A stretch of DNA of 64,000 bases. Source: Octopus vulgaris. Lineage: Eukaryota. The stretch covers positions 27,590,001-27,654,000 of the forward strand of contig OX597839.1 of NCBI GenBank assembly GCA_951406725.2, given 5' to 3'. Both the position numbers and the translations under genes were made by a program. This document shows positions 33,598 to 33,733 of this stretch, in pieces. The notes under the pieces are model-generated. The model had not been told where the DNA came from, did not search any database, and saw only the letters and a program-made list of their open reading frames with translations. Positions within the stretch are counted from its first letter, which is position 1, and every line of letters starts with the position of its first letter.

Positions 33598-33731
33598 TAA
33601 TTTATTTTATAGAAGGAGCTTCTACAGGACTAGAACTGTTTCATTCAAAAGAAATCATCAGGAAGCTTCCTGATGATTTCTTTTGAATGAAACGGTTCTA
33701 GTCCTGTAGAAGCTCCTTCTATAAAATAAAT

Positions 33732-33733
<2 letters not shown>
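33598..33733. ncRNA. 136-bp palindrome encoding a type-I hammerhead on each strand (+33664-33714, -33617-33667)
   Basis: Centre ggaagcttcc, one mismatch; each arm reads agcttc-CTGATGA-tttcttttgaat-GAAA-c(a/g)gttctagtcctg-TA-gaagct. Confidence 0.85.

What the first reader, a model, noticed from the sequence alone, without database searches (positions are those of the whole stretch)
33598..33733. 136-bp palindrome encoding the same hammerhead on both strands
Seen: a gapless palindrome with one mismatch, centred on ggaagcttcc, where the two stem-I 5' strands overlap at the axis. A single-arm copy at 12954-13020 starts at essentially the same point (agcttcc). Inference: fold-back or self-primed synthesis at the AAGCTT palindrome made it, as proposed for inverted PLE termini. 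A transcript from either strand can form either a ~66-bp hairpin (ADAR or Dicer substrate) or a ribozyme. An ambisense hammerhead pair also recalls viroid-like RNAs.
Basis: partly seen in the sequence, partly recalled or inferred. Interest (0 to 1): 0.75.

Follow-up and report, generated by a model that had tools for sequence, protein, structure and literature searches.

The report
Penelope retroelement head-to-head stump
This mirror-image DNA is one of at least 673 near-identical stumps left in this genome by a Penelope-type jumping gene, likely made when two short DNA copies of the start of its RNA were joined head to head during insertion; the architecture is already described, but the copies give a testable clue to how these elements insert.

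Summary
The palindrome is real (136 bp, one mismatch), but it is part of a 202-bp insertion (33532-33733) in (TA)n. The left arm carries a further ~66-nt tail. It is two ends of a Hydra-clade Penelope-like element; an intact copy exists (L093). The same junction occurs at 673 loci. All 96 of 96 short head-to-head pairs have one tailed and one tailless arm. The axis lies 29 nt after a TATAAAT box in 100 of 100 listed native copies, so it is likely the RNA 5' end. A second AGCT in the same arm is an axis only 15 times. Fold-back is disfavoured: in 7 of 15 scored long insertions the tailless arm holds sequence that the tailed arm lacks, and only AGCT, not AAGCTT, pre-exists in this subfamily. Best model: both cut target strands prime cDNAs that run off the RNA start and anneal at AGCT. 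The full hairpin is predicted to lock out both ribozymes. I found no editing signature, and nothing supports a viroid-like reading. The architecture is published (PMC3846280, PMC8557442), and this scan noted similar cases before (108 findings, at least 21 genomes).

The parts
33510..33531 (.). Left (TA)n target run; its last 4 nt match the native ATAT after the tail end (likely priming microhomology)
33532..33667 (-). Tailed arm, 136 nt: from +1 (A of AGCT) through the hammerhead to the distal end (...GGGACCTAC); matches the subfamily-B native pLTR end of L073
33532..33597 (-). One-sided tail (~66 nt); in full-length L093 the 5' copy of this tail runs on into the 5' UTR and ORF
33617..33667 (-). 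Hammerhead-shaped motif, minus strand; predicted cut after GUA at 33623
33664..33667 (.). AGCT shared by both arms: 4-bp junction microhomology; +1 of each arm, inferred transcription start
33664..33733 (+). Tailless arm, 68-70 nt, ending at the proximal AT-rich site (+68 in 42 of 96 pairs)
33664..33714 (+). Hammerhead-shaped motif, plus strand: stem I 33664-69/33709-14, CUGAUGA 33670-76, 3-bp stem II closed by U.U, GAAA 33689-92, 4-bp stem III with a CUAG-containing loop; predicted cut after A33708; G33694 is the single arm mismatch (G.U in stem III)
33734..33770 (.). Right (TA)n target run
12954..13021 (+). Single tailless arm of another subfamily (A), from +1 to +68, between (TA)n runs

Best explanation
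The palindrome is the shortest form of a head-to-head insertion of a Hydra-clade Penelope-like retrotransposon, likely made when both cut strands of a (TA)n target primed reverse transcription near the start of the element's RNA and the two cDNAs ran off its 5' end and annealed at AGCT. SHOWN: parent element with RT, C-terminal GIY-YIG and pLTRs; (TA)n target; one tailed plus one tailless arm; a sharp stop at +1, 29 nt after a TATAAAT box; either arm can be the longer one. INFERRED: (1) The element is transcribed from its 5' pLTR with +1 at the A of AGCU, the first base of hammerhead stem I. (2) The protein, possibly a dimer as modelled for PAc, cuts both strands in (TA)n. (3) One 3' end primes at the AT-rich proximal site (+68), the other at the ACAUAU distal site (+136), probably on the same pLTR copy of one RNA. 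(4) On the 5' pLTR copy both cDNAs end after 68 and 136 nt with ...GGAAGCT-3', pair through AGCT and are filled in, which gives GGA-AGCT-TCC. On the 3' pLTR copy the same reaction gives long inverted insertions. (5) The template is mostly uncleaved RNA, and the finished palindrome is a promoterless by-product whose read-through transcript would fold as a hairpin, not a ribozyme.
For: Parent: L093 has TATA-HHR-tail, a 722-aa stop-to-stop frame, a 3' UTR and a second TATA-HHR-tail. Recurrence: 673 exact junctions, 1240 pairs with a 30-60-nt gap, 6184 exact hammerhead 22-mers. 50 of 68 loci sampled without regard to junction show a head-to-head partner; 33 of these were paired by position within 5 kb, and a few may be separate insertions. 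Tail rule: 96 of 96 short pairs. Cliff: of 101 arms on C1:1-33.7 Mb, 27 end at +1..+3 (18 at +1), 5 at -1 (ambiguous), 4 in -2..-29 and 22 pass the TATA box (two miscalls cancel). TATA: 2788 arms; the spacer is exactly 22 nt in 100 of 100 listed though its sequence differs among subfamilies, and the base before +1 is a pyrimidine in 99 of 100. Control: the second AGCT (+48), which RT must pass first, is the exact axis at 15 loci against 673; 2 more loci join near the cleavage site. Against fold-back: the tailless arm is longer by more than 100 nt in 7 (L053, L062, L095, L096, L097, L105, L107/108), the tailed arm in 5, and they are within 30 nt in 3 of 15 scorable long insertions. Same-region copying: in 21 hand-counted pairs with one arm upstream of +1, the partner is also upstream in 19, truncated beyond +17 in 2, and ends at -1..+3 in 0 (p=0.0006; 11 of the 21 were picked through an endonuclease search). 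In vitro precedent: PAc cuts and extends both strands, starts RT at two adjacent internal sites that bound the tail, is modelled as a dimer, and uses uncleaved RNA (PMC11167929; parts 1-2 of 4 read).
Against: No RNA 5'-end data: the start site rests on the TATA spacing and the cliff alone. Small asymmetric junctions (28 tailed-further, 19 tailless-further, 12 equal of 59, with several indel miscalls) are not decisive, since 1-4-nt differences could be later deletions at the centre of a perfect palindrome. For this one symmetric locus, fold-back cannot be excluded from its own sequence. One of the 7 long cases (L107/108) is a tandem and may be composite, and 12 further loci could not be scored. 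No TSD can be read in (TA)n. Drosophila Penelope uses a TATA-less internal promoter (PMC2377424; passages), so the TATA reading is not general to the class.
Confidence: 0.7

Rival explanations
1. Fold-back or self-priming: one cDNA (or an antisense RNA, as proposed in PMC3846280) snaps back at the short palindrome and copies itself; later central deletions make the asymmetric junctions.
For: The arms are nearly always the same subfamily (49 of 50 listed junctions) and 41 of 61 pairs are identical. The arm classes are concordant. It is the published interpretation of palindromic PLE junctions (passages). Subfamily C has a native near-palindrome with AAGCTT.
Against: Neither arm contains the other in 7 long insertions, with differences up to 4 kb. 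Only 4 bp (AGCT) pre-exist in this subfamily, too short for a loop. Tail divergence does not differ between exact (11) and asymmetric (39) junctions (p=0.50), so asymmetry does not look like ageing, though the test is weak.
Confidence: 0.13
2. Two-ended priming is right, but the stop at +1 is not the RNA 5' end: RT falls off after unwinding stem I, or the RNA is processed there.
For: +1 coincides exactly with the first base of stem I. No transcript-end data exist here.
Against: A structural block should stop RT on entering stem I from the 3' side, where joins are rare (17 loci). The TATA distance is invariant across diverged spacers. 22 of 101 arms read straight through.
Confidence: 0.12
3. 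The palindrome is a self-propagating non-autonomous unit (retrozyme- or viroid-like) that is copied whole.
For: There are hundreds of near-identical copies, and a hammerhead on each strand.
Against: The same junction arises in at least four subfamilies whose markers match full-length elements. No arm-private substitution recurs at the same position, arm and subfamily in 61 pairs. There is no promoter in the unit, and the hairpin is predicted to lock out both ribozymes.
Confidence: 0.04
4. Assembly or sequencing fold-back artefact.
For: This locus was not bridged by any contig.
Against: Asymmetric tail, one arm mismatch, 673 loci with element-defined ends, and the junction in independent short-read contigs.
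Confidence: 0.01

Closest known systems
EN+ Penelope-like insertions with an inverted 5'-truncated pLTR and a one-sided tail (PMC3846280, passages; PMC8557442 Fig. 2 legend and section on Naiad structure, passages)
   Same: Head-to-head inverted copy, palindrome at the junction, tail on one end only, TATA/Inr-like motif noted in a pLTR.
   Different: Here the unit is only the two ends (202 bp), the tail is 66-68 nt rather than 30-40, hundreds of joins share one base, and the data favour two-ended priming over the self-priming those authors proposed.
Hydra clade of PLEs (PMC8557442 section 11 read; supplement rows and alignment passages for Hydra-1_Obim)
   Same: C-terminal GIY-YIG, DKT, YRDD, CxCx5C linker, CxxC and CxH around E/N, (TA)n target, hammerhead. 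Motif blocks match the published Hydra alignment by eye.
   Different: A different family from Hydra-1_Obim: different N-terminus and hammerhead, and 0 supplement hits for three motifs. The unit is 4.9 kb with a ~2.3-kb microsatellite-like 3' UTR (published members are generally under 3 kb), and it has clear pLTRs.
PAc (Poseidon, Anolis) in vitro mechanism (PMC11167929)
   Same: Two adjacent RT start sites bounding the tail, both strands extended, AT-rich target, uncleaved RNA as template.
   Different: That work did not follow the joining of the two cDNAs or tie the junction to the transcription start. Here the start sites resemble the (TA)n target, whereas in PAc they are not homologous to the cut DNA.
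PLE hammerheads, including dual motifs on opposite strands 100-700 bp apart (PMC4209133, passages)
   Same: Type-I topology, palindromic loop III suited to dimer folding, opposite-strand pairs.
   Different: U.U in place of the conserved G10.1-C11.1 pair, a short stem II, and a 4-bp stem III; the two copies overlap at their first four bases.

Membership tests
EN+ PLE inverted-pLTR insertion | Inverted, 5'-truncated copy joined head to head | tested here: met
EN+ PLE inverted-pLTR insertion | Tail on one end only | tested here: met
   96 of 96 short pairs; tail is 66-68 nt, longer than the published 30-40
EN+ PLE inverted-pLTR insertion | Parent with RT + GIY-YIG ORF between pLTRs | tested here: met
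   L093; GIY-YIG and RT read from motifs by eye; Pfam gave no relevant hit on fragments; 1120 homologues at E<=1e-10
EN+ PLE inverted-pLTR insertion | Target-site duplication | tested here: inconclusive
   both flanks are (TA)n
Hydra clade | C-terminal EN with CxCx5C linker, CxxC and CxH motifs | tested here: met
   CNCPDKTTC, CDLC, CMH in L093 against the definition
Hydra clade | DKT and RWK motifs | tested here: met
   DKT present; RWR in place of RWK
Hydra clade | (TA)n insertion preference and a hammerhead in the pLTR | tested here: met
Hydra clade | Short element (generally <3 kb; descriptive) | tested here: not met
   4.9 kb from +1 to the 3' tail
Hydra clade | Placement in the RT phylogeny | not tested
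   reference proteins were seen only in a paper supplement; compared by eye
Type-I hammerhead ribozyme | CUGANGA, GAAA, NUH core with three stems | tested here: met
   stems of 6, 3 and 4 bp, GUA site
Type-I hammerhead ribozyme | G10.1-C11.1 pair | tested here: not met
   U.U at that place; the pair is described as highly conserved in PMC4209133
Type-I hammerhead ribozyme | Match to an Rfam hammerhead model | tested here: not met
   best 12.2 bits, E 7.7; none on the native copy
Type-I hammerhead ribozyme | Self-cleavage | not testable with these tools
   single-arm MFE prefers a rival hairpin over the cut site (-9.4 against -6.7 kcal/mol); a dimer fold forms stem I in trans
Viroid-like or retrozyme RNA | Unit copied whole through a circular RNA with a functional ribozyme in each polarity (definition recalled) | tested here: not met
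   no sign of whole-unit copying in 61 pairs; ribozymes predicted locked; circular RNA itself not testable

The most novel reading that the evidence does not exclude
Penelope-like elements integrate by two-ended priming from one RNA: a dimer starts two cDNAs at the proximal and distal sites of the same pLTR copy, and on the 5' copy both are strong-stop-like run-offs. These hundreds of palindromes then map the transcription start to the first base of the hammerhead, which would make the ribozyme a cap-removing off switch rather than the maker of the template end, and would replace the published self-priming model for inverted pLTRs.
Probability: 0.5. Interest if true: 0.62.

Novelty: new member of a known kind. 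Interest (0 to 1): 0.4.

Why it matters
How PLEs form tandem and inverted ends is named as an open task in PMC8557442, and PMC11167929 leaves the steps after priming unvalidated. This young, very abundant family (27 substitutions in 3402 arm-to-arm sites) gives base-exact predictions: start at the A of AGCU, cDNAs of 68 and 136 nt, joining at AGCT. An intact-ORF copy is present. The locus itself is most likely an inert by-product; if read through, more than a thousand such inserts would be sources of perfect 60-70-bp RNA hairpins.

Tried and rejected
Rfam gave only hairpin-driven miRNA matches below threshold and no hammerhead model. ADAR imprint on the template: rejected. A-to-G was 2 in 830 A sites against T-to-C 4 in 1297 T sites in 61 pairs (6 indel pairs dropped); at the mismatch position the genome has G 19, T 15, C 9 of 43 variant arms. 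The 6 of 7 A/G mosaics among first hits came from searching with the G allele. Sequencing runs: no RNA holder on record and only contigs; laying contigs could not bridge the locus or show a start site, so expression and editing are untested. Small asymmetric junctions were set aside as a test of fold-back because later central deletion could explain them. The first arm-extent script over-extended to -5 through a subfamily-C reference and was redone with subfamily-matched references. Literature: searches for Penelope-like + twin priming/head-to-head, post-2023 mechanism, TATA/start site, octopus and two-RNA/microhomology (0 papers) listed no paper stating the run-off model; I saw listings only for most hits, and subscription papers are not held. 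One paper on dimeric PLE hammerheads was not held. The host looks like an octopus from genome size and repeats; this is an unverified guess.

Full report
OBSERVATION. The stretch 33598-33733 is a gapless 136-bp palindrome with one non-complementary pair (T33637/G33694) and its axis in GGAAG|CTTCC. Each strand carries CUGAUGA...GAAA...GUA with stems of 6, 3 and 4 bp. The real insertion is longer. The minus-strand arm continues 66 nt to 33532, so the unit is 202 bp, with a 136-nt tailed arm and a 68-70-nt tailless arm that share AGCT (33664-33667), between (TA)n runs. The single arm at 12954-13021 starts at the same base and is tailless, but belongs to another subfamily.

A FAMILY, NOT A CURIOSITY. 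The 2.8-Gb genome has 673 exact copies of the 22-nt junction, 1240 head-to-head pairs with a 30-60-nt gap between exact anchors and 6184 exact copies of the hammerhead's 3' 22-mer; reversed-pattern controls gave 0. Of 68 loci sampled without regard to junction, 50 show an opposite-facing partner, and 12 of the other 18 run past the TATA box, so their partner may lie further away. All 96 short pairs have exactly one tailed and one tailless arm. Arms are young: 41 of 61 pairs are identical, with 27 substitutions in 3402 sites. The junction also appears as loose ends in short-read contigs from two studies, so it is not an assembly fold-back as a class; this locus itself was not bridged.

PARENT. 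L093 is an intact element: TATA, hammerhead, tail, a 722-aa stop-to-stop frame, a microsatellite-like 3' UTR of about 2.3 kb, then TATA, hammerhead and tail again. The protein has RWR, DKT, YRDD, a CxCx5C linker, a C-terminal GIY-YIG-type domain and CxxC/CxH motifs, which is the definition of the Hydra clade in PMC8557442 (section 11). It matches that paper's Hydra alignment by eye but is not its Hydra-1_Obim family. No tree was built.

WHY THE AXIS IS WHERE IT IS. In native copies TATAAAT lies exactly 22 nt before AGCTTCC (first T 29 nt before the A) in 100 of 100 listed matches out of 2788, although the spacer sequence differs among subfamilies; the base before the A is a pyrimidine in 99 of 100. 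Arm 5' ends pile up there: of 101 arms, 27 end at +1..+3, 5 at -1 (ambiguous), only 4 in the next 28 nt and 22 pass the TATA box; the other 43 stop between +4 and +32. AGCT alone does not explain it: the second AGCT at +48, which RT passes first, is the exact axis at 15 loci against 673, and only 2 more loci join near the ribozyme cut site (the patterns differ slightly in length). Single arms that begin at +1/+2 directly after (TA)n number 28. I infer that +1 is the transcription start and that RT runs off there. TATA-to-start spacing of about 30 nt is general knowledge, recalled. No RNA-end data were available.

FOLD-BACK OR TWO PRIMERS. PMC3846280 reads palindromic junctions as self-priming on an antisense template (passages). 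Any self-copy model needs the second arm to be contained in the first. The tail is unique to one arm, so a tailless arm that reaches further 5' excludes self-copying. Among 15 scorable long insertions this holds in 7 (by up to 4 kb, L097); the tailed arm is longer in 5 and the two are within 30 nt in 3; 12 more loci were unscorable. Short asymmetric junctions also go both ways (19 against 28), but later central deletion could mimic them, so I give them no weight. In this locus's subfamily the native base before AGCT is T, so AAGCTT is made by the join: two ends reading ...GGAAGCT-3' pairing over AGCT give exactly GGAAGCTTCC. Arms agree in subfamily (49 of 50) and in class: when one arm passes +1, its partner ended at -1..+3 in 0 of 21 hand-counted pairs. 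This suggests that both cDNAs copy the same pLTR region of one RNA; fold-back predicts this too, so it does not separate the models. The picture fits the in vitro behaviour of PAc: both strands cut and extended, two adjacent RT starts bounding the tail, a modelled dimer, uncleaved RNA as template (PMC11167929). Both start sites here are AT-rich like the target.

RIBOZYME AND HAIRPIN. The motif lacks the G10.1-C11.1 pair and matches no Rfam hammerhead. A single arm is predicted to prefer a hairpin that buries the cut site (-9.4 against -6.7 kcal/mol); two arms can form stem I in trans. In the palindrome the full hairpin (-107.6) far outweighs any fold that keeps the hammerhead pairs (-31.6). 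The single A/G mismatch is an ordinary point change: G 19, T 15, C 9 genome-wide, with no A-to-G excess over T-to-C. Expression, editing and small RNAs are untested.

KNOWN AND NEW. The inverted pLTR with a one-sided tail, junction palindromes and opposite-strand hammerhead pairs are published (PMC3846280, PMC8557442, PMC4209133; passages). My searches listed no paper that ties the junction to the RNA start or shows two-ended joining. Earlier notes of this scan reach a similar reading in other genomes (108 findings, at least 21 genomes). I had written down my reading before seeing them, and they are not independent evidence. What this family adds is the fixed TATA distance, the second-AGCT control and the kilobase-scale arm asymmetry.

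VERDICT. Real, and a new member of a known kind; the locus is likely an inert by-product. By-product of a Hydra-type PLE: about 0.97. Full mechanism (two-ended priming plus run-off at the start site): about 0.7. Interest 0.4.

Noticed in passing
window 33775-34416 (-): 3' end of a LINE-like ORF; the palindrome sits in the (TA)n just beyond its 3' end. Related ORF ends occur in L069, L104 and L106.
   Followed up: no
window 18065-18616 (+): Open frame with a GIY-YIG-like motif (PYVGETGR...E...H), probably a fragment of another Penelope-like family; no Pfam hit.
   Followed up: partly
window 4967-4992 (-), 37032-37064 (+), 37195-37221 (+): Three more CUGANGA...GAAAC pattern hits; by eye they lack clear hammerhead stems.
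   Followed up: partly
window 55552-55817: Two opposite-facing repeat arms around a (TA)n run, which draw a spurious miRNA match.
   Followed up: no
window 45640-49760: About 4 kb of (ATT)n-type array, GC under 8%; and a 339-bp inverted pair at 43455-43793 / 51961-52299, 97% complementary, flanking it.
   Followed up: no
L093 4910-7300: The element's own 3' UTR is about 2.3 kb of microsatellite-like GT/AT sequence shared between copies, so the family may spread such sequence through the genome.
   Followed up: partly
L064 9187-9559: Arms ending at +3 and +1 are separated by about 170 nt of unrelated filler, as if two run-off ends were bridged by captured DNA.
   Followed up: no
L072 560-830: Both arms stop at the TATA box and join there.
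   Followed up: no
L069 268-2280 (-): Fragments of a different PLE-type RT (DKGG motif) between two arms of this family.
   Followed up: no
window 33705-33725 (+) and native copies: A predicted 8-bp hairpin just 3' of the core buries the cut site and stem I 3' strand; it could switch the ribozyme off once the transcript passes +62.
   Followed up: partly
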